Assembly: GCA_963793265.1 (NCBI GenBank)
Contig: CAWBZI010000007.1
Coordinates: forward strand, 192,001 to 256,000
Source of the DNA: an uncultured cyanobacterium
Lineage (GTDB): Bacteria > Cyanobacteriota > Cyanobacteriia > Phormidesmidales > Phormidesmidaceae
Direction of reading: 5' to 3'
Length of the DNA: 64,000 bases
In this document: one piece after another, positions 14,101 through 57,528 of the stretch
How the letters are laid out: the number at the start of each line of letters is the position of its first letter
Numbering within the stretch: the stretch's first letter is position 1
The notes under the pieces: model-generated
Seen by the model: the letters and a program-made list of their open reading frames with translations, nothing else
Told to the model about the DNA's origin: nothing
Databases searched by the model: none
Position numbers and translations under genes: made by a program

Positions 14101-16136
14101 CACATCATCGTCGCGGGCTCGGACTGCCAGCGCTAAGCATCAACTGGGGGCCTTGGGCCGAAGCTGGGATGGTCGCTGAGCTAGACACTCGCAGCCAAGA
14201 CCGCATGAAAGCGCAAGGATTGACGGCAATCTCGCCGGACGTGGGTCTACAGATATTAGGTGAGGCGATGCACCAAGCGAGAACGCAGGTGGGCGTAGTG
14301 CCGATTGACTGGGCTGCGTTTATGGCATCCGCAGGCGGGCAGGCGAGCGGCGCAAAGTCCTCGCTGTTTACAGCACTCAGACCAGCGGCTAAACCGGCTA
14401 AGGCGGCATTACGCGCTGAGGTGCTTCAGCAGTTGACGACCGTCGATGCGCGAGATCGCCCCGCCCTATTAGCCACCTACATTCAAGCTCAGCTCGCAAA
14501 AGTCATGGGCTTCAGCTCACCAGAGGCCATCAGCCTCAACGAACAGTTTGGCGACTTAGGCATGGATTCTCTCATGGCCGTCGAATTCAGCAATCGCCTG
14601 CAAACCAATCTCAATCACCCCATTCCACAAACGCTCGCCTTTGACTATCCCACCGTCAATGCCCTATCCAAGTATTTAGTGCAAAAAATCGCGCCTGCAA
14701 CAGATGCCGAAAAAGCACAGCCTGCCGCTATGAAGAAAGCACCAGCCTCTACGTCTATTAAATCCACTGCCGCTGAATCCACTGCCGCTAAATCCACTAC
14801 CGCTGAATCCACTACCGCTGAATCCACTACCGCTAAATCTACTGCTGTTGAACCTATAGCAGAACATTCTCTTCCCCCAAAACACACGCCGAAGCAAAAC
14901 AAAGCTCCCTCATACAAGCCTCCGGCAGCGCACTATCAGTTCTCACAAATGCCTGACTACCGGCGATTACAGCAGGATCTAGAGCGGCTCGAAGATCTCA
15001 AAAATCCTTTCTTCGCCGTTCACGATGGTATTGCCAAAGACACCACGCATATTCAGGGGCGATCGCTCATAAACTACGCCAGCTACAACTATCTCGGACT
15101 CTCAGGCCATCCCGCCGTCAGCGAAGCCGCCCAAAAGGCAATTACGCAATACGGCACCTCCGTTTCGGCAAGTCGAGTGGTTTCAGGCGAGCGCAGTGTT
15201 CATCTGAAATTAGAGCAGGCGATCGCACAGTTCTTAGGCACCGAAGACTGCATTACCTTCATCGGCGGACACGCCACCAACGTAACTACCATCGGCCACC
15301 TCTTCCAAGAAAAAGACCTCATCCTTTGCGACGCGCTTAGCCACAACAGCATTCGCGAAGGATGCAAGCTCTCAGGTGCAACCATTATCGAGTTTCCTCA
15401 CAACGACTGGCAGGCGCTTGACGAGCTTTTATATGAACATCGCCCTCATCATGAGAAAGTATTGGTCGCCATTGAAGGCGTTTATAGTACAGATGGCGAT
15501 CTGGCTGTGCTGACAGAATTTGTGCGGCTAAAAGCAGCGCATAAGGTGTTCTTGATGGTAGATGAGGCGCATTCTATTGGCGTGACGGGTGCGACCGGGC
15601 GAGGTGTGGGTGAGCACTTTGGCGTAGCTGCTGGCGATGTAGATATGTGGATGGGCACGTTGAGTAAGTCTTTTGCGAGCTGTGGCGGCTATATCGCTGG
15701 GTGTTCTGAGCTGGTGAAATACCTGAAATATACGGCTCCAGGATTCTTGTTTAGTGTGGGAATGGCTCCTGCGAATGCAGCAGCAGCACTCGCGGCTTTG
15801 CAAACAGTTCAGCGAGAGCCAGAGCGGGTGACTCAGGTGCAGGCGCGATCGCGTTTGTTCCTCTCTTTAGCCAAAGCCCAAGGACTCAACACCGGAGACA
15901 GCCACGATTCTCCCGTAGTCCCCATTATTGTTGGCGAACCTTACAAGGCCGTTCAACTCTCTTACACACTGCTTCAGCAAGGCATCAACGTACAGCCAAT
16001 GGTTTACCCTTCAGTGCCTTACAACGCCGCTCGCTTACGATTCTTTTTAAGCTGCTTACACACCGAAGAACAGATTACAAAAACCGTACAGACTATTGCC
16101 GACGAGCTAATGATTATCAACGCAGCGGCCTTATAG
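8193..16136 (+). CDS. Type I reducing PKS (KS-AT-DH-ER-KR-ACP) fused to a C-terminal PLP-dependent alpha-oxoamine synthase
   Basis: KS: DTACSSS, HGTGT, NIGH. AT: GHSLG, HAFHS (malonyl type). DH: HRVLENVVLP, HPALLDG. ER: LIHAAAGGVG. KR: GGLGALG, NYAAAN. ACP: GMDSL. AOS: SYNYLG, DEAHS, GTLSKS. Confidence 0.95.
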   Translation: MSSSRSASPEPIAIVGIGCRYPGGANTPDAFWQMIRNGIDSVTEVPASRWNAAAIYDPDVSVPNKTNTRWGGFLEQVDQFDPQFFGIAPREVATMDPQQRLLLEVTWEALEDAGQIPERLRGSKTGVFIGIGTHDYSIMLWQQPVNDPYATTGTGNCIAANRISYLFDFKGPSLAVDTACSSSSVAVHLACQSIWNGESQMAVAGGVNVLLLPTVTAGFSKGGFMSGEGRCKSFDASADGYVRSEGAGLVILKPLSQAVADNDAVYAVIRGSAVNQDGFSQGMAAPNAEAQAAVLRVAYEQAGVDPAKVRYVEAHGTGTKLGDPVEAQALGAVLSGGRSPENPCIIGSVKSNIGHTETAAGVAGVIKAALILKHKEIPPSLHFYSANPAIDFEQLRLRVETGVTSLSQESEIYVGVNSFGFGGTNAHTVLASFETAKVEQNKSVLEAQILALSAKSEAALRDLVVRYQELLRLEPDLGALCRAAGVKRSHFSHRVSFVAKSVLQLQEKIKDWLAGDDAIGAVSGRKAETTGIAFLFTGQGSQAVGMGRSLYKTQPAFRDALDCCSKILSQHNVPLLDVLFEGKPTAEAIHQTAYTQPVLFAFEYALARLWMSWGIQPSVVLGHSLGEYMAACLAGVFSLEDALKLVTARGRLMQALPSGGAMVSVMASAALCKEAIAAVGKEASIAAVNGPQSTVVSGHEEAIAQITQQLEQQNIKCKPLTVSHAFHSDLMEPMLDEFREVANSVIFHKPELPLISMLTGEVATAEIATADYWVRHVRSPVQFLDAIKTLHKRQERTYLEIGAKPILLGMARICLPNAEDVRWLPSLRPQQSSEQVEMLTSLAKLYVQGANVNWAAVDPNLKATAISLPTYPFQRQRYWWEGASIPSMEPRQSASQGLASTTEHPLIGNRLLLAGTREQRFQSLLSAQSPGYLADHRVLENVVLPGAAYLEMAIATAAHWCGSTKFSLSQVSIEQPLILKEKATVIQSVLAPDQNEQATVQIFSSDLSEENFTRHAMATVEKVSSKENLLLERRSLKNIQAALQFHAVDVDGYYQKLSEQGLNYGKSFRVIQQLWRHEGQALSQISREGAIDLAYSLHPALLDGCFQTIGAAVQNNIALGTYLPVGLDWLQVYRPLRQSGWCAVKITQPDASANGSRDGATPTQIKANLSIWDEAGELAAQITGMTLRYVNRSALQQLFGAPETPAHNWLYDFAWLAQPKPEGKKKIVAQDTSTWIIFADDKGIGQQITEALQAASGSVKVGSQQRCISVKKGDRYQALKKNTYALNPASAEDFTQLFTDLTITLAAEQGDLNCRMLYLWGLDAEGSEIGDLSVQEHVCGGLLNLVGAIAQFPALSARLWITTQAAQAVDGPSSLKLQQTPLWGLARTLRLEHPGLQCICLDVAETFFSKLSPKSLNLLLADLCYPDAEEQIAYRQDLRFVARLLSHSDEKASQPLQVPDSDSFRLGLSSYGVLDHLTLVPAKRRFHAGAATPQAGEVEIQVKASGLNFRDVLNALGMLQSVAESMGYATSAEVPFGGECAGIITAVGPGVKRVQVGDAVIAAQAVGSLSQFVTVPVDFVVPKPPSMSFADAATIPTTFLTAYYGLVHCARLKKGDRILIHAAAGGVGQSAVQLAQQIGAEVFATASEPKWNFLRAMGVKYVSNSRSLDFADEILALTEGKGVDVVFNSLNGEVIGKNIEVLAPQGRFVEIGKIGIWTTDQMQATRPDVSYFPFDLLEVSNADSQIIAQMFAELMTRFKSRSLQPLPKTVFPIEFAPDAFRYMAQSRHIGKVVLTLPEIAPYQEMIDGEANYLLAGGLGALGLRVAEWLVSQGARHLILLGRRSPAAAAKETISHLENEGATVKVIQTDIASAKELKTALSSFINASSAHPIKGVFHLAGVLEDKLLINQTWESFETVMKPKIAGAWNLHYLTQDLPLDHFVCFSSIVSLMGSLGQGNYAAANTFLDGLAHHRRGLGLPALSINWGPWAEAGMVAELDTRSQDRMKAQGLTAISPDVGLQILGEAMHQARTQVGVVPIDWAAFMASAGGQASGAKSSLFTALRPAAKPAKAALRAEVLQQLTTVDARDRPALLATYIQAQLAKVMGFSSPEAISLNEQFGDLGMDSLMAVEFSNRLQTNLNHPIPQTLAFDYPTVNALSKYLVQKIAPATDAEKAQPAAMKKAPASTSIKSTAAESTAAKSTTAESTTAESTTAKSTAVEPIAEHSLPPKHTPKQNKAPSYKPPAAHYQFSQMPDYRRLQQDLERLEDLKNPFFAVHDGIAKDTTHIQGRSLINYASYNYLGLSGHPAVSEAAQKAITQYGTSVSASRVVSGERSVHLKLEQAIAQFLGTEDCITFIGGHATNVTTIGHLFQEKDLILCDALSHNSIREGCKLSGATIIEFPHNDWQALDELLYEHRPHHEKVLVAIEGVYSTDGDLAVLTEFVRLKAAHKVFLMVDEAHSIGVTGATGRGVGEHFGVAAGDVDMWMGTLSKSFASCGGYIAGCSELVKYLKYTAPGFLFSVGMAPANAAAALAALQTVQREPERVTQVQARSRLFLSLAKAQGLNTGDSHDSPVVPIIVGEPYKAVQLSYTLLQQGINVQPMVYPSVPYNAARLRFFLSCLHTEEQITKTVQTIADELMIINAAAL
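14760..14849 (+). repeat. Intragenic 15-bp tandem repeat x6 encoding a (K/E)ST(A/T)A linker
   Basis: Units (A/G)AATCCACT(G/A)CCGCT, the sixth degenerate, between the ACP and AOS domains. Confidence 0.92.
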
Positions 16137-26857: not shown

Positions 26858-28018
<1,161 letters not shown>

Positions 28019-28171
28019 GCTCTGATCGTTTGAGTTTGATTGGTGAAAAGGTCAGTTTGCATGTTTGAAGTGCCGACTGGCCTTTTTACTAGCTACTGGC
28101 ATCTTCAATTCGGTTTCCTCTACACGCTTCCGTACACTTACTTCTACTACTGCCACGCACTTTTTTAATCT

Positions 28172-29317
28172 ATGCGAATTGCAATTTTCACGGAAACCTT
28201 TCTGCCTAAAGTGGACGGGATTGTCACTCGTTTGAAGCACACCGTTGAGCACTTGCAGAGCTTCGGGAACGAGGTGTGCGTGTTTTGCCCTGATGGCGGG
28301 CTGCGTGAGTACAAAGGCGCAAAAGTAGAAGGGATTTCTGGCTTCCCGCTGCCGCTTTACCCAGAGCTAAAGCTGGCCTTACCTCGACCTTCGATGCGAG
28401 AGGCGATTGAAGCTTTTAAACCCGACCTAATTCACGTTGTCAATCCTGCCGTTCTAGGCGTGGGCGGCATCTACTACAGCCGCTCGCTCAACATTCCGCT
28501 GATTGCGTCCTATCACACGCACCTGCCTAAGTATTTGGAGCACTACAACCTTGGCATGTTAGAAGGGGTGCTGTGGGAGCTGCTGAAGGCGATGCACAAC
28601 AAAGCGGCTTTGAATTTGTGTACCTCTTCGGTTTTGCAGCAAGAGCTAATCGATCATGAGATCGAGCGGGTAGAGGTGTGGCAGCGCGGGGTTGATACTG
28701 AGCTGTTTCGCCCAGATTTGCGCAGCGATGAAATGCGATCGCGCCTCACAAACGGTCATCCCGACGCGCCAATCTTGATTTACATCGGTCGTCTCTCTGC
28801 CGAAAAAGAAATTGATCGCATTAAGCCCGTCCTAGACGCTATGCCGGGCGCTCGTTTGGCCTTAGTCGGCGACGGCCCTTATCGTGAAGAACTCGAAAAG
28901 CATTTTGCAGGTACGCCTACAAACTTTGTGGGCTACCTGGCGGGCGAAGAACTTGGTGCGGCCTATGCCTCTGCTGATGCGTTTATTTTCCCTTCTCGAA
29001 CTGAGACATTGGGTTTGGTGCTGCTAGAAGCGATGGCCGCAGGCTGTCCGGTGGTGGCTGCTCGCGCGGGTGGTATTCCTGATATTGTGACCGATGGCGT
29101 CAATGGCTTTATGTTTGACCCGACCGATGAGCAGGGGGCGATCGCAGCGACTCAAAAGCTATTAGGGATGAAAGCCGAGCGCGAACTATTACGGCAAAAT
29201 GCTCGGGTAGAAGCTGAGCGCTGGGGTTGGGAAGCTTCTACCCGGCAGCTAGAGCGATACTATATTGCAGTTTTAAGCAGGGGTTTGAATGGGGGAGAAA
29301 TGGTGATCGCAGCTTAG
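28172..29317 (+). CDS. sqdX: Sulfoquinovosyltransferase (SQDG synthase)
   Basis: GT4 with FTETFLPKVDGIV, SYHTHLP and ETLGLVLLEAMA; directly follows sqdB. Confidence 0.93.
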   Translation: MRIAIFTETFLPKVDGIVTRLKHTVEHLQSFGNEVCVFCPDGGLREYKGAKVEGISGFPLPLYPELKLALPRPSMREAIEAFKPDLIHVVNPAVLGVGGIYYSRSLNIPLIASYHTHLPKYLEHYNLGMLEGVLWELLKAMHNKAALNLCTSSVLQQELIDHEIERVEVWQRGVDTELFRPDLRSDEMRSRLTNGHPDAPILIYIGRLSAEKEIDRIKPVLDAMPGARLALVGDGPYREELEKHFAGTPTNFVGYLAGEELGAAYASADAFIFPSRTETLGLVLLEAMAAGCPVVAARAGGIPDIVTDGVNGFMFDPTDEQGAIAATQKLLGMKAERELLRQNARVEAERWGWEASTRQLERYYIAVLSRGLNGGEMVIAA

Positions 29318-41666: not shown

Positions 41667-43736
41667 TTATTTGGTCATTGTCTGAGCCGAACTAGCCTCA
41701 CAGAAAAGCTGGCTGATGTGAGAGGCATTCATCGGCTTACCCAGGTAGTAGCCCTGCACAACGTCTACGCCACAGCGTTGAACTAGATGCAACTGCTCTG
41801 CGGTTTCTACGCCTTCTGCTACGACCGAGAATCCCAAATCATGACAGAGCTGAATGCTAGAGGCCAGCAATACTTGGCCGCGCCTGGCCTCTCCTTTAGG
41901 TGCAGTCACAAGCTGTCTATCTAGTTTAATTTCGTCGGCCTCTAGTGCCACTAAATTAGTTAGGGAGGAGTATCCTGCCCCAAAGTCGTCAATCGCAATG
42001 CGGTGCCCTGCCGCTCGAAGCTGATGAATAACGGAGGCGAGGGCCTTGAGTTCTACAGTATAGGTATGTTCAGTGATTTCAATGTAGAAGCGGATGTTAT
42101 GTTGTTTTGCGCGAGCAATAAAGTCTTGCACAGCCCGCGAATCGAGTAAAAAGTCTTTATCAAAATTGATGGCGATCGGTGGAATTTCAAAGCCCATCGT
42201 TCGCCAGCGAGCAATCTGAGAGAAGGTAAGATTAACGACTTTTTTATCAACGGCTTTTGAGAGCCCTTGCTTGTAGAGCACGGGTAGAAACGACGGTGGG
42301 AAAATTGTGCCGTCATTGTCTTGAAAGCGGAGCAGGGCTTCTAGGCCAACCAGATGAAGCGATCGCGCATCCATCTTGGGCTGAAAATATAGTAAAAAGT
42401 CCCCGTCTCTAAGCTGATGTAGCACCTTTTGAGCCGCCGCCACACTCTTTAGCATATCCTTCTGACGTGCGACGAACAGCCGCTCTTGGCGGTTGCTCAT
42501 TTCCTCACTCACAAATCCATAGGCATCTCCCCCGAAAAGCCGACGCAGATAACGGGGCGCTTCGTATTGCTGAGAGGCGATCGCTAAAAACGGAAAGTAA
42601 AGGCAGCCGTCTACCACAATGCAAACCATCTGTGTCGCTACAGCCCACAGCGATCCATCTGTGGCCACATAAGCGCTGTAGAGTGGGGGCGTCATCCAGT
42701 GTACGGGCAGCAGATCGATAGAGAATAGGCCGAGGCGAATAGCGGTAAAGGCGATCGCCATATTGACAAAGGCGGTTGCAAAAAAAGGAATAAAGAAAAT
42801 AGGATTCAACAGAATAGGTAGGCCAAACAGCAGAATTTCATTGACGTTGAAAAAAGAAAACGGCAGACTCAGCCGAGCGATTGATTTTAGGCGGGTGGCT
42901 TGCTTGGTGAAAAGAATGAGAAATGGCACTACGAACGTCGCCCCCGTGCCTCCTATACTCAAAAAAACATCGTAGAAAGGCTTCATCCGAATTGTGGTTG
43001 TTTCACCGACCGGAATTTTGTAGAGAAGCTGAAAGATTCCAGAGGCACTATGATCGCCGTGTAGTCCTACAAACCAGGCACATAGCGCAATTATTTTGAA
43101 GACAACAAGTTCTTGAATAGGTTTAATTTGCTCAAACTGTGGAAAAGCATGAGCCAATAGAAAGCTTCCATCCGCACCCAATAGCAGCGCGGTAGGCCAT
43201 CTCATTAGCTCAAACAACAAAACCGTTAAAAAACCAGGAATGACTAGATTAAGAGAACTAATCAGGCGAGGGCTCAAATCGCTACGGTAATTAACAATCT
43301 GTAGCCAGGGCTTTTTAGAAAAGTAGTGCAGAAGCCAAACAGCCAGCCAAGCGCACGGAATGCTGGTAAGGATAGATCCGTGATAGGAGATAATTTGAGC
43401 CGACTCGTCAATACCTAGAAACCCTGAGCCTCTTAAAAAGCAGACCATGGCAATGAGCAGCGTACCAATTTGATCGAGCCCTTTGTGCTTGGCCAGCAGC
43501 GTGCTGAGCGATAAGTTGACAAAAAGCGGCAGCAAAAAGAAATATAGCCGATTGATCTCTGTGCTAGATAGTGCGGCTTTGTCTATAAAGAGGCTGCTGG
43601 CATTTATGCTTTCTAATACCCCTGTCAGGCCAGAAAGCATGACCAGAATATTCATCACCAGCACAACAGGCAGCAGGGAGATGAAAGCTTCTCGGATGAT
43701 GATAAGCGGCTTAGCGTCGATGGAGGGGGACGACAT
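41667..43736 (-). CDS. PTS EIIC (Lac/Cel-type) membrane domain fused to EAL c-di-GMP phosphodiesterase
   Basis: EIIC motifs WFVGLHG, GGTGAT and FNVNEILLFGLPILLNP. EAL motifs FQPK, EAL, EITE, DDFGAGYS, EGVET and QGY. Confidence 0.88.
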   Translation of the reverse strand: MSSPSIDAKPLIIIREAFISLLPVVLVMNILVMLSGLTGVLESINASSLFIDKAALSSTEINRLYFFLLPLFVNLSLSTLLAKHKGLDQIGTLLIAMVCFLRGSGFLGIDESAQIISYHGSILTSIPCAWLAVWLLHYFSKKPWLQIVNYRSDLSPRLISSLNLVIPGFLTVLLFELMRWPTALLLGADGSFLLAHAFPQFEQIKPIQELVVFKIIALCAWFVGLHGDHSASGIFQLLYKIPVGETTTIRMKPFYDVFLSIGGTGATFVVPFLILFTKQATRLKSIARLSLPFSFFNVNEILLFGLPILLNPIFFIPFFATAFVNMAIAFTAIRLGLFSIDLLPVHWMTPPLYSAYVATDGSLWAVATQMVCIVVDGCLYFPFLAIASQQYEAPRYLRRLFGGDAYGFVSEEMSNRQERLFVARQKDMLKSVAAAQKVLHQLRDGDFLLYFQPKMDARSLHLVGLEALLRFQDNDGTIFPPSFLPVLYKQGLSKAVDKKVVNLTFSQIARWRTMGFEIPPIAINFDKDFLLDSRAVQDFIARAKQHNIRFYIEITEHTYTVELKALASVIHQLRAAGHRIAIDDFGAGYSSLTNLVALEADEIKLDRQLVTAPKGEARRGQVLLASSIQLCHDLGFSVVAEGVETAEQLHLVQRCGVDVVQGYYLGKPMNASHISQLFCEASSAQTMTK

Positions 43737-43902
43737 CTACAAAAATGGCGCAAGGATTACATCAGAATACTCGCGGATGCTGTAGTTTTGCCCTGAACTC
43801 ATTAACGGCTTAGCTCTACGATGTGCCTTACACAATAGCTCAGCAAGCCTTAGTAGAGGTTCAGTGGTTGAGAGGTAAAGCCGAGTATAAAAAGCGATCG
43901 CG

Positions 43903-44787
43903 TTAGTATTCACCTGATTCTTTAATCCGTCTTACCAGGTACTCTCGCATCTCGATAAAGTCTTTAGATACGCGGATTTCTGACGGCGAGGTGGTTTGCA
44001 GCCGTGCTGAGAAAGGGTTGGGAATATCTTCAACAATGCGTCCCGGCTTGGCATACATCAAAACAATGCGGGTAGAGAGCAGCAGCGCTTCTTCGACATC
44101 GTGGGTGATAAAAAAGATGCTTTTGTTGGTTTTACGCCAAATGTCGTAGAGGCTGAGCTGCATCGATTCGCGCGTAAAGGCATCGAGTGCGCCAAAGGGC
44201 TCATCCATGAGGATGACTTTAGGATCGGCGGCCAGGGCGCGGGCGATCGCAGCGCGTTGCTTCATCCCCCCTGATAGCTGGTGCGGTAGCTTTTTAGCCG
44301 CATCAATCAGGCTTACCATCTCTAAAAAGTAGCTGACGCGCTGCTTTCGCTGCAGGGCTTCCATCTTTTTCATCCGAGGGCCAAACGAGACATTCTTCTC
44401 TATCGTGAGCCAGGGAAATAGATTGGGCTGCTGGAAGACAACGCCGACTTCAGCGTCAGGCTTGGTGTGCGGTCTGCCATCCACGGTGACAGTGCCGTTT
44501 GTAGGGCGTTCGTATCCGGCCAGTACGCGCAGTAGAGAGGTTTTGCCGCAGCCAGAGGGGCCAATGGCACAGACAAAATCGCCTTCGTTAAGATTGAGAT
44601 CAAGATCGTGCAGCGCTTCAAAAGGCTCACCGCCGTCGTCTTCGTAAAATAGATCGATGTTCTGTAGTGAGATTAAAGTGTCGCCAGTCAGCGGGTTTTG
44701 GATGTCTTCAGTTGAGGATGCTCCTGTGGTATCTACAGGCGTATCTGTAGATGAGGTGCCATGAAGCGTGTCAGGGAGAAGATCCAT
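43903..44787 (-). CDS. tauB: Taurine/sulfonate ABC transporter ATP-binding protein
   Basis: GPSGCGKT, LSGGMKQR, DEPFGALD and THDVEEA motifs; operon context. Confidence 0.8.
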   Translation of the reverse strand: MDLLPDTLHGTSSTDTPVDTTGASSTEDIQNPLTGDTLISLQNIDLFYEDDGGEPFEALHDLDLNLNEGDFVCAIGPSGCGKTSLLRVLAGYERPTNGTVTVDGRPHTKPDAEVGVVFQQPNLFPWLTIEKNVSFGPRMKKMEALQRKQRVSYFLEMVSLIDAAKKLPHQLSGGMKQRAAIARALAADPKVILMDEPFGALDAFTRESMQLSLYDIWRKTNKSIFFITHDVEEALLLSTRIVLMYAKPGRIVEDIPNPFSARLQTTSPSEIRVSKDFIEMREYLVRRIKESGEY

Positions 44788-44844
44788 AGGAGAGGATTAG
44801 GTTACGACAAGAAAGGGAGATTAGGTGTTTTTTATAAGAATGCT

Positions 44845-44873
44845 GTAGGGGTTTAGCACTGCTAAACCCCTAC
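44845..44873. repeat. Perfect GTAG-type palindromic REP
   Basis: GTAGGGGTTTAGCA-C-TGCTAAACCCCTAC, between tauA and tauB. Confidence 0.88.
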
Positions 44874-44903
44874 GAGATATCAAGCGATCGCGTCTTCTAA
44901 ACC

Positions 44904-46010
44904 CTACTTAGCCGCGTCAGCAACAGGCGCGTTAAATAGCGCTTTTTGATAGGTTTCAACATCAGGCGCACTAGGAATCGCGTCTTGGCTCACCATGAAC
45001 TCAGCAGAATCCTTGAGCACCTGGCTCATCTGACCCGGCGCATCGGGCGTGCCCAGATACTCAGCCGTCGCTTGTTCTGAAGCATCTAGCCAAACCAGCT
45101 CATTCATCACCTTCAGGCTTTCTTCAGGCGTCAGACCGATCTCTTCAGAGATAGCAGCAGCAGCTTCTTCAGGCTCGCTACGGTATAGCTCAGTTGCCTC
45201 GCTCAGCGCAGCAACATAGCCCTCAAGAAACTCAGGGTAGCTGGCAGCAAACTCTTTACTCACGATCCCAAGATCAGCGGTGATAATGCCGTCTTCAGCG
45301 AGCTGCTTAGCCGTGATTAGCAGGCTGCCGCTTTCATCGACCATTTTAGAGAGCGTAGGCTGCCACACAAAGCCGCCGTCGATGTCGCCACGCTGCCAGG
45401 CAGCCAGCATGTCTTGAGGCTGCAAATCAAGAATTTGAACGTCAGCAGGGTCGATGTCTGCCTGGGTAAGAGCCGAAAGTAGGCTGAAGTGAGTGGTGGA
45501 GCCGAAGGGAACGCCGATTTTTTTGCCAACAAGATCGGCCATTTCGGCAATGCCAGAGGCTTCGGTCACGGCCAGAGCTTCGTTGTCGCCAATGATGTCG
45601 TGAATGAAGTAGACGCTATAGGGTAAGTCTTGGGCAACGCCTGTAGAAACGGGAACGGAGCCTGCTAGGCCCACGTCAATGCCACCTGCGACCATGGCCG
45701 TGTTTACGTCACGACCGGAGTCAAACGGAAGCCACTTGATGTCAACATCGGGAAATTTAGCTTCGGCTAACCCTAAGTTTTTTGTTAGCAGTTCAGCGTT
45801 AGGAACCACCTGATAGCCAATGCGAAATTCGGTGGGCATCGCGCCGGTAGCGCCACCCTCAGCGCTGGTGGTAGTTTCAGGCTGGGTGCAGGCAGCTAGC
45901 GTCAGCACTAACGTCATGCTGAGGAGGCCGAGCAAAACGGCGAACTGTCTGCGGAATAAGCGCTTTAGCCCGAAAGGCGATCGCGTGGTGGGCTTGATTG
46001 AATGGGGCAT
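44904..46010 (-). CDS. tauA: Taurine ABC transporter substrate-binding lipoprotein
   Basis: LAAC lipobox; IGYQ, FDSG.DV, EAL, VPFGSTTHFSLL and AAWQRGDIDG are TauA-type motifs. Confidence 0.82.
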   Translation of the reverse strand: MPHSIKPTTRSPFGLKRLFRRQFAVLLGLLSMTLVLTLAACTQPETTTSAEGGATGAMPTEFRIGYQVVPNAELLTKNLGLAEAKFPDVDIKWLPFDSGRDVNTAMVAGGIDVGLAGSVPVSTGVAQDLPYSVYFIHDIIGDNEALAVTEASGIAEMADLVGKKIGVPFGSTTHFSLLSALTQADIDPADVQILDLQPQDMLAAWQRGDIDGGFVWQPTLSKMVDESGSLLITAKQLAEDGIITADLGIVSKEFAASYPEFLEGYVAALSEATELYRSEPEEAAAAISEEIGLTPEESLKVMNELVWLDASEQATAEYLGTPDAPGQMSQVLKDSAEFMVSQDAIPSAPDVETYQKALFNAPVADAAK

Positions 46011-46108
46011 GTTTTCTTTTAGTTCTGTATATAAAGAGCGTGAGATTCAACAGTCACTATACAAGGCGACGTTAATTTGCCAAGGCTATTACCCAGCTAT
46101 TTCTCAGA

Positions 46109-47008
46109 CTATTCGCGACCGACCCAGGGCAGATAGTGGGCCTGCAAGCGGCGCAGACCCGTGTCAAGAATAATCGCAATCACGCCCATAATAATGATGC
46201 CGACGAACATCACATCGCTGCGCAAAAAGCTGCTCGCATCAAGCACCATCCAGGCAATGCCTGAAAGAGCTGCCACCATTTCAGCGGCGACTAAGGTGGT
46301 GTACATAAATCCGAGCGCAGTTCGCAGACCGGTAAATAGTTCAGGTAAGCAAGAAGGGAAAACGACCTGAGTAAATACTTGCCACTGCGAGGAGCCTAGC
46401 GAAAGGGCGGCGTTGATGCGATCGCGCGGCACCCTTTGAACGCCCGACACCATCGCAATATAGAGCGGGGCAAAGCCAGCTAAAAACAGCAGCGCAATCT
46501 TAGAGCCGTCTTCAATACCGAGCCAGATAATCAGCAGCGTGTAGTAGGCCAGCGGTGGCAGCGGGCGATAGAACTCAATGAACGGATCAATAATGGCCCG
46601 AACTGGCTTGAAGTAGCCGCTGGCTAGTCCTAATGGCACCGCTAGCGAAATCGCGAGCACAAAAGCAATGATTAGCCGCATCATGCTCGCGCCAATGTGC
46701 ATTAGCAGCGGCGTCCCTTTATAGCCGTTTGTGAGAATATCTATAAAGGTTGTCCATACGGTTTGAGGGGATGGAAAGAACAGGGGTTTGACCCAGCCTA
46801 AGTTAGTGGCTAAAAACCAAATGAGGAGGGCGATCGCAACCGATAAAAAAGACAGCCAGCGATAGGAAGAAGGTCGCTTTTTCTTCGTAGATCGCTGGCG
46901 CTTGCGGGCGGGTTTAATCGGTACGTTTTTGTTGATCGGCTCTTTGGTTTGCGCAGGCATAAAGGTATGTATCAGGCTGGGGCTTACTTTTCGATTGAGC
47001 TGTGTCAA
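46109..47008 (-). CDS. tauC: Taurine/sulfonate ABC permease
   Basis: FPSP, EFYRPLPPLAY..L..IWLGI and TTLVAAE motifs. Confidence 0.82.
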   Translation of the reverse strand: MTQLNRKVSPSLIHTFMPAQTKEPINKNVPIKPARKRQRSTKKKRPSSYRWLSFLSVAIALLIWFLATNLGWVKPLFFPSPQTVWTTFIDILTNGYKGTPLLMHIGASMMRLIIAFVLAISLAVPLGLASGYFKPVRAIIDPFIEFYRPLPPLAYYTLLIIWLGIEDGSKIALLFLAGFAPLYIAMVSGVQRVPRDRINAALSLGSSQWQVFTQVVFPSCLPELFTGLRTALGFMYTTLVAAEMVAALSGIAWMVLDASSFLRSDVMFVGIIIMGVIAIILDTGLRRLQAHYLPWVGRE

Positions 47009-47022
47009 CTACGCTAGGCGAA

Positions 47023-48459
47023 TTATGCAGGTAATGCAAATACAGCCTTGCGTAACACCTCAGCGAGCCGGTCTATTTCTGCGCGCGTAACAATCAGCGG
47101 CGGGCAAAGAATCAGCACATTGTTAAAGCCTGGAATGGTGTTGGTGTTGCGCCCAATCATCACATTTTGTTCCATGCAGCCTTTCACAACGGCAACAACT
47201 TTTCCATCCTCTAAAGGCGTTTTACTCGCTTTATCAGTCACCAGCTCTACGCCCATCAACAGTCCTTTACCTCGCACATCACCCACATTCGGATGCGCTA
47301 GCAAAGGCTGAAGCTTCTCCATCAGGTAGTCACCCATTTCAGCCGCATTGTCGGCCAGATTTTCTCTTTCAATAATTTCAATATTACGCAGCCCTACCGC
47401 CGTACAAACGGGCGTACCGCCGTAGGTGCTGATATGACGAAAGTGGCTATTGGTACCGGGCTCGTCTAGAAAAGCCTCAAAGATATGCTGCTTTACAACC
47501 GTTGCAGAGAGCGGCATGTAGCCACTGGTGAGCCCTTTGGCAAAGGTGATAATGTCAGGCGTAATCCCCCAGTGCTGGTGCCCAAACATTTTGCCGGTGC
47601 GGCCAAAGCCGTTGACGACTTCATCGAATATGAGCAGAATGCCGGTGCGATCGCAAATCTCCCTGACCCCTTTTAAATAGCCATCAGGCGGCACAATTAC
47701 CCCGCCCCCTGAGATAATCGGCTCCACAATAATCGCCGCAATCGAATCGGCTCCCTCATACTGAATAGTCATCTCCAACTCTTTTAGGAGCGTGTCGTTG
47801 TAGCTTTCTTCAGTCTGGCCGTTGCCAAATCGGTAGTAGTAAGGTGGATTCGTATGTAAAAAGCCTGGCACCAGCGGGCCGTATTTTGACTTTCTTTCAG
47901 CTTGAGCCGTGGCGCTTAGTGCGCCCATGGTGCCGCCGTGATAGCCTCGGTAGCGAGAGATAAATTTGTAGCGATCGCCCGCCCCCTTTGCTCCTGTTTG
48001 CGCATGATACTGCCGGGCAATTTTGAAGGCGGTTTCATTCGCTTCAGAACCACTCGTAGAGAAAAAGACTTTGCCCTCATAGTCAAGCAGTTCCAACAGT
48101 TTATGAGCCAGGCGAATGCCAGGCTCGTGGCTCATCGTCAGCGGCGAATAGGCCAGATTTGTCATTTGCTCATAGGCCACCTCGGCTAGTTCCTGTCGGC
48201 CATAGCCAACATTCACGCACCAAAGACCTGAAACGCCATCAAAATACTCTACGCCCTGGTCATCCGTTACATGACAGCCTGCCGCTTTGCTAATACACTT
48301 GGGCGGCTGCTTTGCAAAAGGCTTGTGCTGCGCCATCGCGTGCCACAGCGACGACTGATCCATCTCAGATAGGCTACTTGCCGGGTTACCTGCTTGATCT
48401 AGCTGCTTTAGATCAAACTCTTTTTTATTCAACCGACTCTTGTCTAGCTTAATAACCAT
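47023..48459 (-). CDS. tpa: Class III aminotransferase, taurine-pyruvate aminotransferase-like
   Basis: WH..QHKPF, GLWCVNVGYGR, SGSEANE, DEVVNGFGRTG and AKG motifs; first gene of the tau operon. Confidence 0.72.
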   Translation of the reverse strand: MVIKLDKSRLNKKEFDLKQLDQAGNPASSLSEMDQSSLWHAMAQHKPFAKQPPKCISKAAGCHVTDDQGVEYFDGVSGLWCVNVGYGRQELAEVAYEQMTNLAYSPLTMSHEPGIRLAHKLLELLDYEGKVFFSTSGSEANETAFKIARQYHAQTGAKGAGDRYKFISRYRGYHGGTMGALSATAQAERKSKYGPLVPGFLHTNPPYYYRFGNGQTEESYNDTLLKELEMTIQYEGADSIAAIIVEPIISGGGVIVPPDGYLKGVREICDRTGILLIFDEVVNGFGRTGKMFGHQHWGITPDIITFAKGLTSGYMPLSATVVKQHIFEAFLDEPGTNSHFRHISTYGGTPVCTAVGLRNIEIIERENLADNAAEMGDYLMEKLQPLLAHPNVGDVRGKGLLMGVELVTDKASKTPLEDGKVVAVVKGCMEQNVMIGRNTNTIPGFNNVLILCPPLIVTRAEIDRLAEVLRKAVFALPA

Positions 48460-48540
48460 GGTGAGATACCTGAATTTCAGAACAAATAATTTTGAAGAAA
48501 TGCCTGAGTCGCGACTGATATGAAGCGCGCTATTGAAAGA

Positions 48541-48582
48541 ACAATAACAATTCAGGAAAAGAGTTTGTGTATCTCAAAATAC
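48541..48582 (-). promoter_or_regulatory. Canonical NtcA-activated promoter (GTA-N8-TAC-N22-TAN3T)
   Basis: Minus strand reads GTATTTTGAGATAC (48582-48569), exactly 22 nt, then TATTGT (48546-48541), pointing into tpa. Confidence 0.82.
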
Positions 48583-48638
48583 GGTTAAGGGAGGAAATTG
48601 TTGAATCTCCTCCTTATGACGAAAGTGAATATTTTTCT

Positions 48639-49445
48639 TTAGCCGTCTTCTCGATGGATGAGGGTGCCTGTAGACTGATCGGTGGGCAGTAAATACAGCT
48701 CACTAATGTTGACGTGAGCCGGGCGGGTCGCCGCAAAGAAGATACTATCGGCCACATCATCTGGCGTCAGTGCCGTCATGCCTTTGTAGACATTCTTCGC
48801 CCGCGCTTCATCACCTCGAAAACGAACGCCGCTAAACTCTGTTTCGACCAGCCCAGGCTCAACGTTAGTCACGCGAATAGGCGTACCCAACAAATCTATT
48901 TTCAGCCCCTCAGTTATTACCTTCACCGCCGCTTTTGTCGCACAGTAAACGCTGCCTCCTGTGTAGGTATAGCGCCCAGCGCTAGAGCCGATATTTATGA
49001 TGTGCCCCTGGTTGCGCGCCACCATGCCCGGCACAATTGCGCGCGTCATATACAGTACGCCTTTAACGTTGGTATCGATCATCTCCTCCCAGTCCTGAAG
49101 CGGGGCTTCGTACTGTTTATCAAGGCCACGACTCAACCCGGCATTGTTGATGAGGACGTCGATAGATTTCCACTCATCCGGTAGACCAGCGAGCGCGCTA
49201 TTGACATCACCAGATTTTTGCACGTCTAAAGGCAGCAACAATGTGTCTGTTTTATGCTCTTTTTGTAGCTGTTCGGCCAAGGACTGTAGCTTTTCTTTGC
49301 GGCGAGCGCAGAGAATGAGTTTGGCCCCAGCTTCAGCGAATAGTCGGGCACTAGAGGCACCAATCCCCGCGCTAGCTCCGGTGATAAGAACAACTTTGTT
49401 TTTGAGTGCGATCGCCATAATTTTTCTAAGAATGCTAGTGTGCAC
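48639..49445 (-). CDS. NADP-dependent SDR, YdfG/IsfD subfamily
   Basis: TGASAGIG, ARR, NNAG, YCATK, EPGLVETEFS..RF and P.HVNI motifs. Confidence 0.85.
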   Translation of the reverse strand: MHTSILRKIMAIALKNKVVLITGASAGIGASSARLFAEAGAKLILCARRKEKLQSLAEQLQKEHKTDTLLLPLDVQKSGDVNSALAGLPDEWKSIDVLINNAGLSRGLDKQYEAPLQDWEEMIDTNVKGVLYMTRAIVPGMVARNQGHIINIGSSAGRYTYTGGSVYCATKAAVKVITEGLKIDLLGTPIRVTNVEPGLVETEFSGVRFRGDEARAKNVYKGMTALTPDDVADSIFFAATRPAHVNISELYLLPTDQSTGTLIHREDG

Positions 49446-49938
49446 CCCTTATGGTAAAAGCTTTTTGAGCGCAGCGTTCACCGTTTCGCTCCAAGCTAGA
49501 TAGATGCATTGTGATTAATATTTTTGTTCTACCAAACCCAGGATTGGAGTGACTGAGGAACAAGAACAATACTTTAAATACTATGCTTCAGGGGAACCGA
49601 CGCCGCTTCTTTTGATTAAGTGGCTGTGCCGACGCCCTTCTTTAATGCCGAAGTTATGGGGTGCGTAGGTGGAGCCTATACGTAATGATCGCAAGGATGC
49701 CGACAACATCTGCCTAGACCTACGGTGAGCGTTATTTATGTACCGATACTAGAAATTTTCTATGTGCACTTCTGTATTGAACCGCACAATTTTTCTTTAT
49801 AAATGTTAGTGCTTCATTACAATTGTGTCGCTAGCGCAGCCCCTTTGCACTAAGAACAATCGTTAACGACCGCTGACTTGCTTAAGTATTCCTTACCAGA
49901 ATTAGATTATTTGATGTATAGGCCGTAAAATTGAACAT

Positions 49939-51642
49939 ATGACGGCTGATAAAACGATTTTAATTTTGGCGGCGAATCCTTCGGATACGACTCGGCTACG
50001 GCTTCCAAAGGAGGTACGCGAGATTCAGGAAGGATTGGCGCTTTCATCAGGGCGCGATCGCTTCTCGGTTGTCTCCCAATGGGCCGTACGCCCAGACGAT
50101 TTACGCCGCGCCCTACTTAAGTATCAGCCCCAAATCGTCCACTTCTCAGGCCATGGCGAAGGCGCTCAAGGGCTCGTATTTGAAAACGATAGAGATAAGT
50201 CTAAACGGGTCAGCGGAGCTGCGTTAGCCCGGCTGTTTGGGCTGTGTCCTAGTGTGGAGTGTGTGCTGCTAAATGCCTGCTATTCGAGCGTACAGGCCGA
50301 GGCGATTGGTGAGCATGTGCAGTATGTAGTGGGCATGACGCAGGATATTGGCGATCGCGCTGCGATTAACTTTGCCGTTGGCTTCTACGATGCCTTGGGC
50401 TACGGACGCTCAGTACCCGATGCTTATAAGTTTGGACTGGCTGCTATTGACCTAGAAGGCATTGACGAGACGGCGACGCCGGTTTTGCAGGTGAAAGATC
50501 AGCCGGTGGAGAACTTGCGTGTTGAAGCGCAACCTCCTGAACTTCGACCAGTGGCAGATTCGACGCCTGCAAATAACGGCACAGATGACACGGACGAGAC
50601 ACCGCCGATTCAGACTCAATCACTTCAGATCGAGGAGCCGGGGGGACTGGTGCCTTTGCAGTCGCTGTTCTATGTGGAGCGATCGCCTATCGAAAAAGAC
50701 TGCTACGAGGCCGTTGTGCGTCAGGGCTCTCTCATTCGGATCAAAGCGCCTCGGCAGATGGGCAAAACGTCTTTGCTGGTAAGAACGCTTGACCACGCCA
50801 AAGCGCAGGGCTACGAAACGGTCAGGTTGAGCTTTCAAACCGCAGACACCGAAGCGCTCAACCACCTCGACGAGTTTTTGCAGTGGTTTTGCGCCAGCGT
50901 GACTGAAGAGTTGGATATGGAAGATCGCCTAGCTGACTACTGGAAAGGCGCTCGGGGAATTGTCAGGCGGGCGCAGCGATATTTTGAAAAGTACGTTTTA
51001 GCTGAGTTAGATAAGCCGCTGGTGTTAGGCCTTGATGATGTTGATCAGGCATTTGAGCATCCTGCGATCGCCACCGACTTCTTCGGCATGTTGCGCGTAT
51101 GGCACGAAGAAGGCAAAAGCAGCCCCTTATGGCGCAGGCTGCATCTGGTCATCGTGCACTCTAAAGAGGTCTACATTCCCCTCAGCATCAATCGTTCTCC
51201 TTTTAACGTGGGCTTGCCAATTGAGCTACGAGAGCTGAACGCCGAAGAAGTCGCCGCCCTGATAGATCGCCACCGTTTAACCCTCACCGAGCATCAACAA
51301 GAACAGCTAGTAGAGCTAGTCGGCGGTCATCCCTATCTACTTCGCGCTGCCCTCTACCAGCTCGCCAGAGGCCGACTTACCCTTTCTAAGCTCATGGCCC
51401 AAGCCCCCACCGAAAGCGGCCTATATAGCGATCACCTACGCCGACATCTGTTGAACTTAGAGGCCGATCATGATCTAGTAGAAGCTTTTCGAGAAGTGAT
51501 CGGCGTGTATAGCCCAGTGCGAATTGGGTCTACCGCTGCGTTTAAGCTACATAGCATGGGACTGGTAAAGTATCAGGGTAATGAGGTGGTGCCTTTGTGC
51601 GAACTTTACCGGCAATATTTTCAATCTCGGTTAGGAGGATAG
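49939..51642 (+). CDS. CHAT domain + AAA-like (AAA_35, STAND) NTPase
   Basis: ILILAANP, VHFSGHG and LNACYS (His/Cys dyad); Walker A APRQMGKTS; SPFNVG and GGHPYL. Confidence 0.88.
   Translation: MTADKTILILAANPSDTTRLRLPKEVREIQEGLALSSGRDRFSVVSQWAVRPDDLRRALLKYQPQIVHFSGHGEGAQGLVFENDRDKSKRVSGAALARLFGLCPSVECVLLNACYSSVQAEAIGEHVQYVVGMTQDIGDRAAINFAVGFYDALGYGRSVPDAYKFGLAAIDLEGIDETATPVLQVKDQPVENLRVEAQPPELRPVADSTPANNGTDDTDETPPIQTQSLQIEEPGGLVPLQSLFYVERSPIEKDCYEAVVRQGSLIRIKAPRQMGKTSLLVRTLDHAKAQGYETVRLSFQTADTEALNHLDEFLQWFCASVTEELDMEDRLADYWKGARGIVRRAQRYFEKYVLAELDKPLVLGLDDVDQAFEHPAIATDFFGMLRVWHEEGKSSPLWRRLHLVIVHSKEVYIPLSINRSPFNVGLPIELRELNAEEVAALIDRHRLTLTEHQQEQLVELVGGHPYLLRAALYQLARGRLTLSKLMAQAPTESGLYSDHLRRHLLNLEADHDLVEAFREVIGVYSPVRIGSTAAFKLHSMGLVKYQGNEVVPLCELYRQYFQSRLGG

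Positions 51643-55254: not shown

Positions 55255-57528
<2,274 letters not shown>

What the first reader, a model, noticed from the sequence alone, without database searches (positions are those of the whole stretch)
43903..49445. NtcA-controlled taurine-nitrogen scavenging operon in a cyanobacterium
Seen: a tpa-like aminotransferase followed by tauC-tauA-tauB, preceded by an exact GTA-N8-TAC-N22-TAN3T promoter. A YdfG/IsfD-type SDR lies immediately upstream on the same strand. No tauD or xsc is in the window. Known: in heterotrophs such as Klebsiella, a taurine aminotransferase plus IsfD deaminates taurine and excretes isethionate; NtcA is the cyanobacterial global nitrogen regulator; E. coli tauABCD serves sulfur starvation instead. 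Inference: this phototroph imports taurine or a similar omega-amino acid as a nitrogen source and may release isethionate, which would cross-feed neighbours.
Basis: partly seen in the sequence, partly recalled or inferred. Interest (0 to 1): 0.8.

Follow-up and report, generated by a model that had tools for sequence, protein, structure and literature searches.

The report
Nitrogen-controlled taurine cassette with orphan microprotein
A group of filamentous cyanobacteria carries a conserved gene cassette behind two nitrogen-starvation-type promoter motifs that likely imports taurine, keeps its nitrogen and likely excretes the sulfonate as isethionate, and the cassette opens with an undescribed 42-residue gene under strong protein-level selection that may regulate it.

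Summary
The reading is supported. The box is conserved before the aminotransferase in 41 of 51 cyanobacterial loci (background 1.3%). The binding protein keeps all seven E. coli TauA taurine-pocket residues and folds best on TauA. The genome has no taurine-type tauD, no ssuD and no xsc. Relatives add a TauE exporter (32 of 44 loci) and alanine dehydrogenase (15 of 44), and swap tauCAB for a Na+/alanine-type symporter. Corrections: the aminotransferase is of the pyruvate-dependent 3N5M/Tpa family, not Klebsiella Toa, and its 7-residue fingerprint equals the beta-alanine enzyme 3N5M. The SDR is a common cyanobacterial YdfG-like enzyme (85 of 351 genomes), so its IsfD role rests on context. Taurine to isethionate about 0.68; beta-alanine to 3-hydroxypropionate about 0.12. 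A known pathway, newly assembled in an oxygenic phototroph; no activity or expression data.

The parts
49774..49787 (-).
   Evidence: strict pattern before the small gene in 30 of 36 evaluable loci
49581..49709 (-). Conserved 42-aa ORF of no known family; first gene of the cassette; C-terminal motif K-E-G-R-x-H-x-H-L...G-V-G-S-P
   Evidence: (motif pN/pS 0.05 over 35 sequences)
48639..49418 (-). YdfG-like SDR, predicted NADPH-dependent; inferred sulfoacetaldehyde reductase (longest frame opens at GTG 49445)
   Evidence: (YdfG 260 bits, IsfD 6IXJ 208 bits)
48569..48582 (-). Second NtcA box (GTA-N8-TAC); -10 box TATTGT at 48546-48541; predicted start site near 48534
47023..48459 (-). Class III aminotransferase of the PRK07678/3N5M/Tpa family; inferred taurine:pyruvate aminotransferase
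   Evidence: (619 bits, cut-off 488)
46109..47008 (-). TauC-like ABC permease (likely start at the ATG near 46960)
   Evidence: best family TauC, 244 bits, below cut-off 342; 42% to E. coli TauC
44904..46010 (-). TauA-like binding protein with Q67, G99, G117, E144, T172, W216, D246 matching E. coli Q30, G61, G79, E106, T132, W176, D205
43903..44787 (-). TauB-like ABC ATPase
   Evidence: best family TauB, 263 bits, below cut-off 357; 44% to E. coli TauB

Best explanation
Under nitrogen shortage NtcA likely switches on two promoters of this cassette; the TauABC-type transporter likely imports taurine, the aminotransferase likely moves its amino group to pyruvate, and the SDR is predicted to reduce the leftover sulfoacetaldehyde to isethionate, which a TauE-family protein would export. 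Alanine dehydrogenase (C6:183968-185062 here; divergent from the cassette in many relatives) would release the ammonium for glutamine synthetase. Carbon and sulfur of taurine would be discarded because no desulfonating enzyme is found. Shown: gene order, both promoter motifs and their conservation, the TauA pocket and predicted fold, co-occurrence, absence of tauD/ssuD/xsc matches, and coding-type selection on the 42-aa gene. Inferred: every substrate, every activity, NtcA binding, export. For the 42-aa gene I favour a cis-acting leader that adds substrate sensing (about 0.5) over a trans-acting partner of the aminotransferase (about 0.4).
For: Promoters: class II pattern (GTR-N8-TAC-N21-23-TAN3T) within 450 nt of the aminotransferase's conserved start in 41 of 51 loci against 59 of 4529 upstream windows of this genome; ntcA present. 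Import: all four side chains whose mutation weakens or abolishes taurine binding in E. coli TauA, including D205 that SsuA lacks (PMC6906117), are kept; a pLDDT 95.6 model matches TauA at Z 40.1, rmsd 1.5 over 290 residues, against 33.4 for the best SsuA. Synteny over 52 distinct cyanobacterial loci: SDR 38 of 44, TauE 32 of 44, ald 15 of 44 with enough upstream DNA; an importer in 40 of 48 with enough downstream DNA (symporter 31, tauCA 9, never both). Enzyme: the cyanobacterial clade groups (96/98) with a deltaproteobacterial pair, one of which sits beside a true xsc plus ackA and a related symporter, apart from the pyd/MSDH-linked clade (100/99; p-AU 0.006). The nearest non-cyanobacterial locus L062 reads GntR-aminotransferase-tauCAB-aldehyde dehydrogenase-TauE. 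An N-terminal QH motif is shared with xsc-linked and annotated Tpa proteins and absent from all 6 pyd/MSDH-clade proteins shown. No PydA ortholog.
Against: The 7-position fingerprint (M W Y R G G N) is identical to the beta-alanine:pyruvate enzyme 3N5M and differs at 2 positions from Bilophila Tpa; 3N5M is the best solved match (500 bits). Tpa itself turns over beta-alanine at 38% of the taurine rate (PMC9418295 Table 2). L096 has the QH motif yet sits by MSDH and no xsc, so the motif is not a clean marker, and three other members of the sister group (L086, L087, L099) have no taurine genes nearby. The SDR is closer to YdfG than to IsfD, occurs in 85 of 351 phylum genomes, and shows no pocket difference between cassette and stand-alone copies. 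TauA, TauB and TauC all fall below their NCBIfam cut-offs. TauA-type proteins with the same or nearly the same pocket also occur in 6 of the 26 genus genomes without the aminotransferase. tauE is unlinked and lacks an NtcA box here. The genome has a dihydropyrimidinase over cut-off. The loci are kin, not independent. The promoter pattern was widened from GTA to GTR after (27 of 52 with GTA only), and the group for the tree test was named after a first tree was seen.
Confidence: 0.68

Rival explanations
1. The cassette scavenges nitrogen from beta-alanine: the aminotransferase gives malonate semialdehyde, the YdfG-like SDR reduces it to 3-hydroxypropionate, which is excreted, as in the last steps of pyrimidine-nitrogen scavenging.
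For: Fingerprint identical to 3N5M; Bacillota homologs at about 50% sit with MSDH and pyd genes; YdfG is the SDR's best family and structure; a dihydropyrimidinase is in the genome.
Against: TauA pocket and fold; TauE in 32 of 44 loci; pyd clade separate, p-AU 0.006; no PydA, and the PydC-like gene lies in a purine cluster beside hpxO; no pyd gene or MSDH in any cyanobacterial locus mapped.
Confidence: 0.12
2. Taurine nitrogen is used, but the sulfoacetaldehyde is not reduced by this SDR; it leaves as aldehyde or is oxidised to sulfoacetate by an unlinked dehydrogenase, and the SDR is a passenger.
For: SDR is widespread without the cassette; it is unlinked in G001, G003 and G134 and missing from loci L077 and L080; L062 uses an aldehyde dehydrogenase instead.
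Against: SDR within 4.5 kb in 38 of 44 loci, behind an NtcA-type promoter that 0 of 11 stand-alone copies have within 700 nt; all 20 aminotransferase-positive genus genomes keep it.
Confidence: 0.08
3. The main substrate is a taurine analogue (N-methyltaurine, hypotaurine or homotaurine), with the HODM-family protein of relatives removing N-methyl groups before transamination.
For: PF11927 (haem-dependent N-demethylase alpha-like) lies in 12 of 44 loci and is intact in 11 of 46 genus genomes, all of them aminotransferase-positive; plasmid homologs at 42% are annotated hypotaurine-pyruvate aminotransferase.
Against: This genome has no PF11927 match; no reductase partner of HODM was seen in the cassettes; 3 of the 11 HODM genes lie away from any cassette gene; the TauA pocket is unchanged from the taurine-selective E. 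coli one.
Confidence: 0.08
4. The transporter serves sulfur supply, feeding sulfite into cysteine or sulfolipid synthesis.
For: TauABC is a sulfur-starvation system in E. coli (PMC6906117); cassette genes lie next to sqdB-sqdX-like genes in 5 genus genomes.
Against: No tauD ortholog, ssuD or xsc; two NtcA-type promoters; an exporter rather than a lyase travels with the cassette.
Confidence: 0.04

Closest known systems
[quoted passage not shown]
   Same: TauABC-type import, class III aminotransferase, YdfG/IsfD-group SDR, exporter, no C-S cleavage.
   Different: Host is a cyanobacterium (the paper says IsfD clusters were predicted only in Proteobacteria); enzyme is of the 3N5M/Tpa family with ald, not Toa; SDR is a recruited native gene; control is by NtcA-type promoters with no regulator gene in the cassette; importer is interchangeable with an AgcS-family symporter; an undescribed 42-aa gene leads the unit.
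Taurine:pyruvate aminotransferase Tpa (Bilophila wadsworthia) and the 3N5M beta-alanine:pyruvate subfamily (PMC9418295)
   Same: Same subfamily, PRK07678 over cut-off; R145-type carboxylate/sulfonate arginine and no flipping arginine.
   Different: Fingerprint matches 3N5M at 7 of 7 and Tpa at 5 of 7; context is nitrogen scavenging, not sulfite respiration or Xsc catabolism.
E. coli tauABCD
   Same: Binding-protein pocket and fold, permease and ATPase homology.
   Different: No TauD; gene order tauC-tauA-tauB behind an aminotransferase; nitrogen-type promoter.
Taurine-to-sulfoacetate nitrogen pathway (SafD/SafE type; recalled from Neptuniibacter caesariensis, paper not read)
   Same: Aminotransferase, tauABC and a TauE/SafE exporter; locus L062 has this layout.
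   Different: The cyanobacterial cassette carries a reductase-type SDR, not an aldehyde dehydrogenase.
Metabolite-sensing leader peptides such as TnaC and SpeFL, and NtcA-regulated small effector proteins such as PirA and IF7 (all recalled, from no call)
   Same: Short first ORF with a conserved C-terminal part ending in Pro near the stop; or a small NtcA-controlled protein tied to one enzyme.
   Different: No sequence similarity found to any family; no Rho in this genome; no conserved RNA structure.

Membership tests
TauABC-Toa-IsfD-IsfE taurine-nitrogen pathway | Taurine-type ABC importer | tested here: met
   Pocket 7 of 7 (Q30 match by the N-terminal YQ motif, not by the pairwise local alignment); best fold TauA; below NCBIfam equivalog cut-offs
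TauABC-Toa-IsfD-IsfE taurine-nitrogen pathway | Taurine:2-oxoglutarate aminotransferase of the Toa type | tested here: not met
   BkToa 6JIX scores 231 bits against 500 for 3N5M; family PRK07678. It works like Toa but is the Tpa/3N5M type
TauABC-Toa-IsfD-IsfE taurine-nitrogen pathway | IsfD-type sulfoacetaldehyde reductase | tested here: inconclusive
   Y153, R199, Q248 align with IsfD Y148, R195, Q244 (residue roles recalled) but YdfG and stand-alone cyanobacterial copies have them too
TauABC-Toa-IsfD-IsfE taurine-nitrogen pathway | Sulfonate exporter in the cluster | tested here: inconclusive
   TauE/SafE in 32 of 44 related loci; unlinked in this genome; that IsfE is a TauE-family protein is recalled
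TauABC-Toa-IsfD-IsfE taurine-nitrogen pathway | No desulfonation route in the genome | tested here: met
   genome 98.97% complete; unknown routes not excluded
TauABC-Toa-IsfD-IsfE taurine-nitrogen pathway | Growth on taurine nitrogen with stoichiometric isethionate release | not testable with these tools
   needs culture
3N5M/Tpa aminotransferase subfamily (PRK07678) | Profile score and active-site fingerprint (W47, Y129, R145, G185, G346) | tested here: met
   619 bits over cut-off 488; fingerprint from PMC9418295 Table 1
NtcA-activated class II promoter | GTA/G-N8-TAC about 22 nt before a TAN3T box, outside coding DNA, conserved in orthologs (consensus recalled) | tested here: met
   same pattern precedes nirA and glnN in this genome
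NtcA-activated class II promoter | NtcA binding and nitrogen-dependent transcription | not testable with these tools
   no RNA holder listed
E. coli-type tauABCD sulfur system | Taurine dioxygenase TauD | tested here: not met
Pyd beta-alanine nitrogen pathway (PydABC, aminotransferase, MSDH) | PydA and linkage to pyd or MSDH genes; enzyme in the pyd-linked clade | tested here: not met
Ribosome-arrest leader peptide | Translated short ORF at the head of the transcript with conserved C-terminal residues | tested here: met
   Coding-type selection and position; translation itself is inferred
Ribosome-arrest leader peptide | A downstream switch (Rho site, attenuator or occluded ribosome site) | tested here: inconclusive
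   No Rho, consensus fold -2.8 kcal/mol, gap to next gene up to 730 nt
Ribosome-arrest leader peptide | Ligand-dependent stalling | not testable with these tools
   needs toeprinting or ribosome profiling

The most novel reading that the evidence does not exclude
The 42-aa gene is a new sulfonate-sensing ribosome-arrest peptide that replaces the TauR/GntR regulator and works without Rho, layering taurine induction on NtcA control; the cassette makes benthic filamentous cyanobacteria net converters of animal- and algal-derived taurine (and, where the HODM gene is present, N-methyltaurine) into isethionate for heterotrophic neighbours.
Probability: 0.22. Interest if true: 0.88.

Novelty: new variant of a known kind. 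Interest (0 to 1): 0.6.

Why it matters
Cyanobacteria are treated as makers of sulfonates (sulfolipid), not as users of taurine nitrogen; a 2026 paper on marine Synechococcus with taurine transporters found no tpa-type route and left the question open (PMC12997750, passages read). This cassette gives a complete, testable route in a lineage whose named members include cultured strains (PCC 7375 and PCC 7335 proteins), which would add taurine to the organic nitrogen sources of benthic cyanobacteria and make them a source of isethionate. The 42-aa gene is a new handle on substrate sensing inside the NtcA regulon. The chemistry itself is known from Proteobacteria, which caps the surprise.

Tried and rejected
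Single-sequence fold of the binding protein failed (pLDDT 36); the alignment-based fold worked. Complex prediction of the 42-aa protein with the aminotransferase was not available, so binding is untested. Rfam found nothing in 43000-50200; RNAalifold found no conserved structure over the small gene and its flanks in 19 loci, so a riboswitch or classic attenuator was rejected. Pfam, the 5.8-billion-protein search (21 hits; the named ones are hypothetical cyanobacterial proteins) and the ESM Atlas gave no family for the small protein (the Atlas blank shows nothing). No RNA holder listed. Near-identical DNA was laid from 3 of 7 listed runs (macroalgae and sediment metagenomes, 2 studies, one possibly the source); not used as habitat evidence. 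Sigma-70 and terminator scans were at shuffle level. The 50%-representative search added only outgroup rows. SDR pocket residues could not separate IsfD from YdfG. The Pfam TauD hit was rejected as taurine dioxygenase by context and lack of E. coli TauD similarity. The primary 3N5M paper was not held, so whether 3N5M accepts taurine is not known to me; the IsfD structure paper and Krejcik 2010 were not read. No supplements were read; Fig. S3 of PMC9418295 bears on my mapping of the fingerprint positions.
Full report
Observation. The five ORFs lie on the minus strand in the stated order. The box GTA-N8-TAC at 48582-48569 with TATTGT 22 nt later is in the sequence. The genome (5.68 Mb, 98.97% complete) has 837 bare palindromes but only 33 with this spacing, 20 outside long ORFs. 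I scanned 9 genes behind such sites; nitrite reductase, type III glutamine synthetase, the Sll0783 nitrogen-starvation protein, its neighbour and a xanthine permease were named, four were uninformative. ntcA and ald pass their cut-offs. The NtcA consensus itself is recalled.

Missed parts. A second, GTG-type box with a -10 element lies at 49787-49746. An earlier finding of this scan (e1-9915620) mentioned a small gene at the head of a similar cluster; I checked and found a 42-aa ORF at 49709-49581. In 35 distinct full copies it is 42-48 aa, starts with ATG in 34, and its 18-codon motif has pS 0.71 and pN 0.035 (ratio 0.05; the two shifted frames 3.2 and 5.4; the antisense frame in register 0.095, as expected when third positions coincide). 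It has no Pfam, Rfam or Atlas match and no conserved RNA fold. It is intact or nearly so in 16 of 46 genus genomes, 15 of which have the aminotransferase; the 16th is a decayed cassette; G001 has a copy with stops; 4 aminotransferase-positive genomes lack it. In a draw of 351 phylum genomes it was found in the same 2 as the aminotransferase, and in the distant one (G134) it lies directly before the aminotransferase. In 40 distinct copies the next cassette gene is the SDR (26), HODM (10), the aminotransferase (3) or TauE (1); 30 of 36 have a strict NtcA pattern just upstream, after dropping 4 loci cut by contig ends, two of which the script had scored wrongly.

Promoter conservation. With GTA only, 27 of 52 loci have the class II pattern before the aminotransferase. 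Allowing GTG, 41 of 51 do (1 locus dropped for a missing 5' end), against 59 of 4529 upstream windows in this genome; the A on each side of TAC, which the pattern does not demand, is invariant in all 42 sites. The loci are related, so this is a footprint, not a statistical test.

Cassette anatomy. Loci came from genus genomes and a GTDB scan. Over 52 distinct cyanobacterial loci: SDR 38, TauE 32, ald 15 and HODM 12 of the 44 with at least 2.5 kb upstream; an importer in 40 of the 48 with at least 1.5 kb downstream, an AgcS-family symporter in 31 and tauCA in 9, never both (families). Across 46 genus genomes the aminotransferase is in 20, the SDR ortholog in all 20 plus 7 others (3 of these with tauA, tauB or HODM remnants beside it), TauE in 16 of 20 versus 3 of 26, intact HODM in 11 of 20 versus 0 of 26. 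Named relatives are Phormidesmis, Leptothoe, Adonisia, Nodosilinea and Leptolyngbya types. This genome lacks HODM and keeps tauE elsewhere.

Substrate: binding protein. PMC6906117 (passages read) names Q30, G61, G79, T132 for the sulfonate and E106, T132, D205 for the amine, D205 being absent from SsuA, with W176 lining the site. The window protein keeps six by alignment and Q67 by the N-terminal YQ motif; a paralog in the same genome reads differently at 5 of 7. The predicted structure ranks E. coli TauA first (Foldseek E 9e-29; VIA Z 40.1, rmsd 1.5, 290 aligned) ahead of SsuA (Z 33.4). Against: scores are below the TauA family cut-offs, and close or solo homologs with the same or nearly the same pocket occur in 6 genus genomes without the aminotransferase.

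Substrate: aminotransferase. It passes PRK07678 and is closest to 3N5M. PMC9418295 (passages and Tables 1-2 read) places Bilophila Tpa in this subfamily, with taurine 250 and beta-alanine 95 mU/mg. The window enzyme's fingerprint equals 3N5M, which favours no decision for taurine. Context does: in a 93-row quick tree and a 32-row careful tree (rows chosen from the first; long branches left out) the cyanobacterial enzymes join a deltaproteobacterial pair (one with verified xsc, ackA and a symporter 49% identical to the cyanobacterial one; the other with ackA only on a short contig) and three proteobacterial enzymes without taurine context, at 96/98, while pyd/MSDH-linked enzymes form their own clade; holding cyanobacterial and pyd enzymes together is rejected at p-AU 0.006, a group named after the first tree. 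L062, nested among the cyanobacterial rows, has GntR, tauCAB, an aldehyde dehydrogenase and TauE; its host label may be a binning error. A QH motif near the N-terminus is shared with xsc-linked and annotated Tpa proteins and missing from the pyd clade, with L096 as a counter-example. I claim no donor or direction of transfer.

SDR. It is nearer YdfG than IsfD, present in 85 of 351 phylum genomes, and not distinguishable by pocket residues from stand-alone copies, none of 11 of which has an NtcA box within 700 nt. PMC6616044 (first fifth of the text and passages read) describes IsfD as one of a ubiquitous group of 3-hydroxyacid dehydrogenases, so recruitment of a native enzyme is plausible but inferred.

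What is absent. xsc, ssuD, a TauD ortholog, PydA and Rho were not found. A dihydropyrimidinase is present and an allantoate-amidohydrolase-like gene sits in a purine cluster.

Mechanism. Nitrogen shortage, NtcA, two transcripts or one with an internal promoter; taurine in by TauCAB or the symporter; taurine plus pyruvate to sulfoacetaldehyde plus alanine; Ald frees ammonium; SDR gives isethionate; TauE exports. All activities are inferred. For the small gene, always-first position and a conserved C-terminus ending in Pro 2-8 residues before the stop favour a leader; lack of Rho, of RNA structure and of fixed spacing, and its tight tie to the aminotransferase, favour a trans-acting partner.

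Prior art. Ten searches of the open library were made; the five aimed at cyanobacterial taurine use or NtcA leader peptides (17, 24, 63, 100, 120) listed no description of this cassette, judged from listings and abstracts, with passages read in PMC12997750, PMC13436972 and bioRxiv 10.64898/2026.10.08.757548. Subscription papers are not covered. The scan's own note e1-9915620 reached a similar reading in another genome; it is not independent support.

Verdict. A real, conserved, NtcA-type nitrogen cassette; a new variant of the known taurine-to-isethionate pathway, built from different parts in a phototroph, with one undescribed small gene. Interest 0.6.

Noticed in passing
window 41667-43736 (-): PTS EIIC domain fused to an EAL phosphodiesterase directly after tauB; not seen beside the cassette in the relatives mapped. 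Odd in a cyanobacterium, which is not expected to have a sugar PTS (recalled).
   Followed up: no
window 26867-29317; L028, L029, L140, L154, L169: sqdB-sqdX-like pair (names recognised from sequence; Pfam epimerase and GT4) lies 15 kb from the cassette here and right beside cassette genes in 5 genus genomes; ancestral location or a sulfonate link.
   Followed up: partly
L031:9067-10038, L028:7022-7996 and others: HODM alpha-like gene (PF11927) inside the cassette of 12 of 44 loci, with no reductase partner seen; candidate N-methyltaurine demethylase.
   Followed up: partly
G000:C7:2405-4126: AgcS-family symporter about 61% identical to the cassette symporters, with two GTA-N8-TAC boxes upstream and a Usp gene beside it; a possible second importer.
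   Followed up: partly
G000:C2:70468-82849 (L151): Sulfonate/nitrate-type ABC genes, a LysR-like gene, a PRK08275 flavoprotein and, at the end, the unlinked tauE; possible separate sulfonate system.
   Followed up: partly
L032 (G015), L129, L131, L134, L137: Decaying cassettes: repeated transposase-like insertions between promoter and aminotransferase and in tauA in G015; SDR next to lone tauA, tauB or HODM fragments elsewhere.
   Followed up: partly
L161-L168, L156, L157: Solo TauA paralogs (51-60% identity) without permease genes, most keeping the taurine pocket, several beside sensor- or enzyme-like genes.
   Followed up: no
L041 (G023): The cassette directly follows the copper amine oxidase, GCV_T/DUF1989 and ammonium-transporter cluster, whose counterpart in this genome is at C2:219959-226496.
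   Followed up: no
L062: Locus labelled Domibacillus whose aminotransferase nests among cyanobacterial ones, with GntR, tauCAB, aldehyde dehydrogenase and TauE; possible sulfoacetate-excreting variant or mis-binned contig.
   Followed up: partly
window 8193-16136 and 55300-57528: A 2647-aa polyketide-synthase-like ORF and a catalase-peroxidase-like ORF (recognised from sequence only).
   Followed up: no
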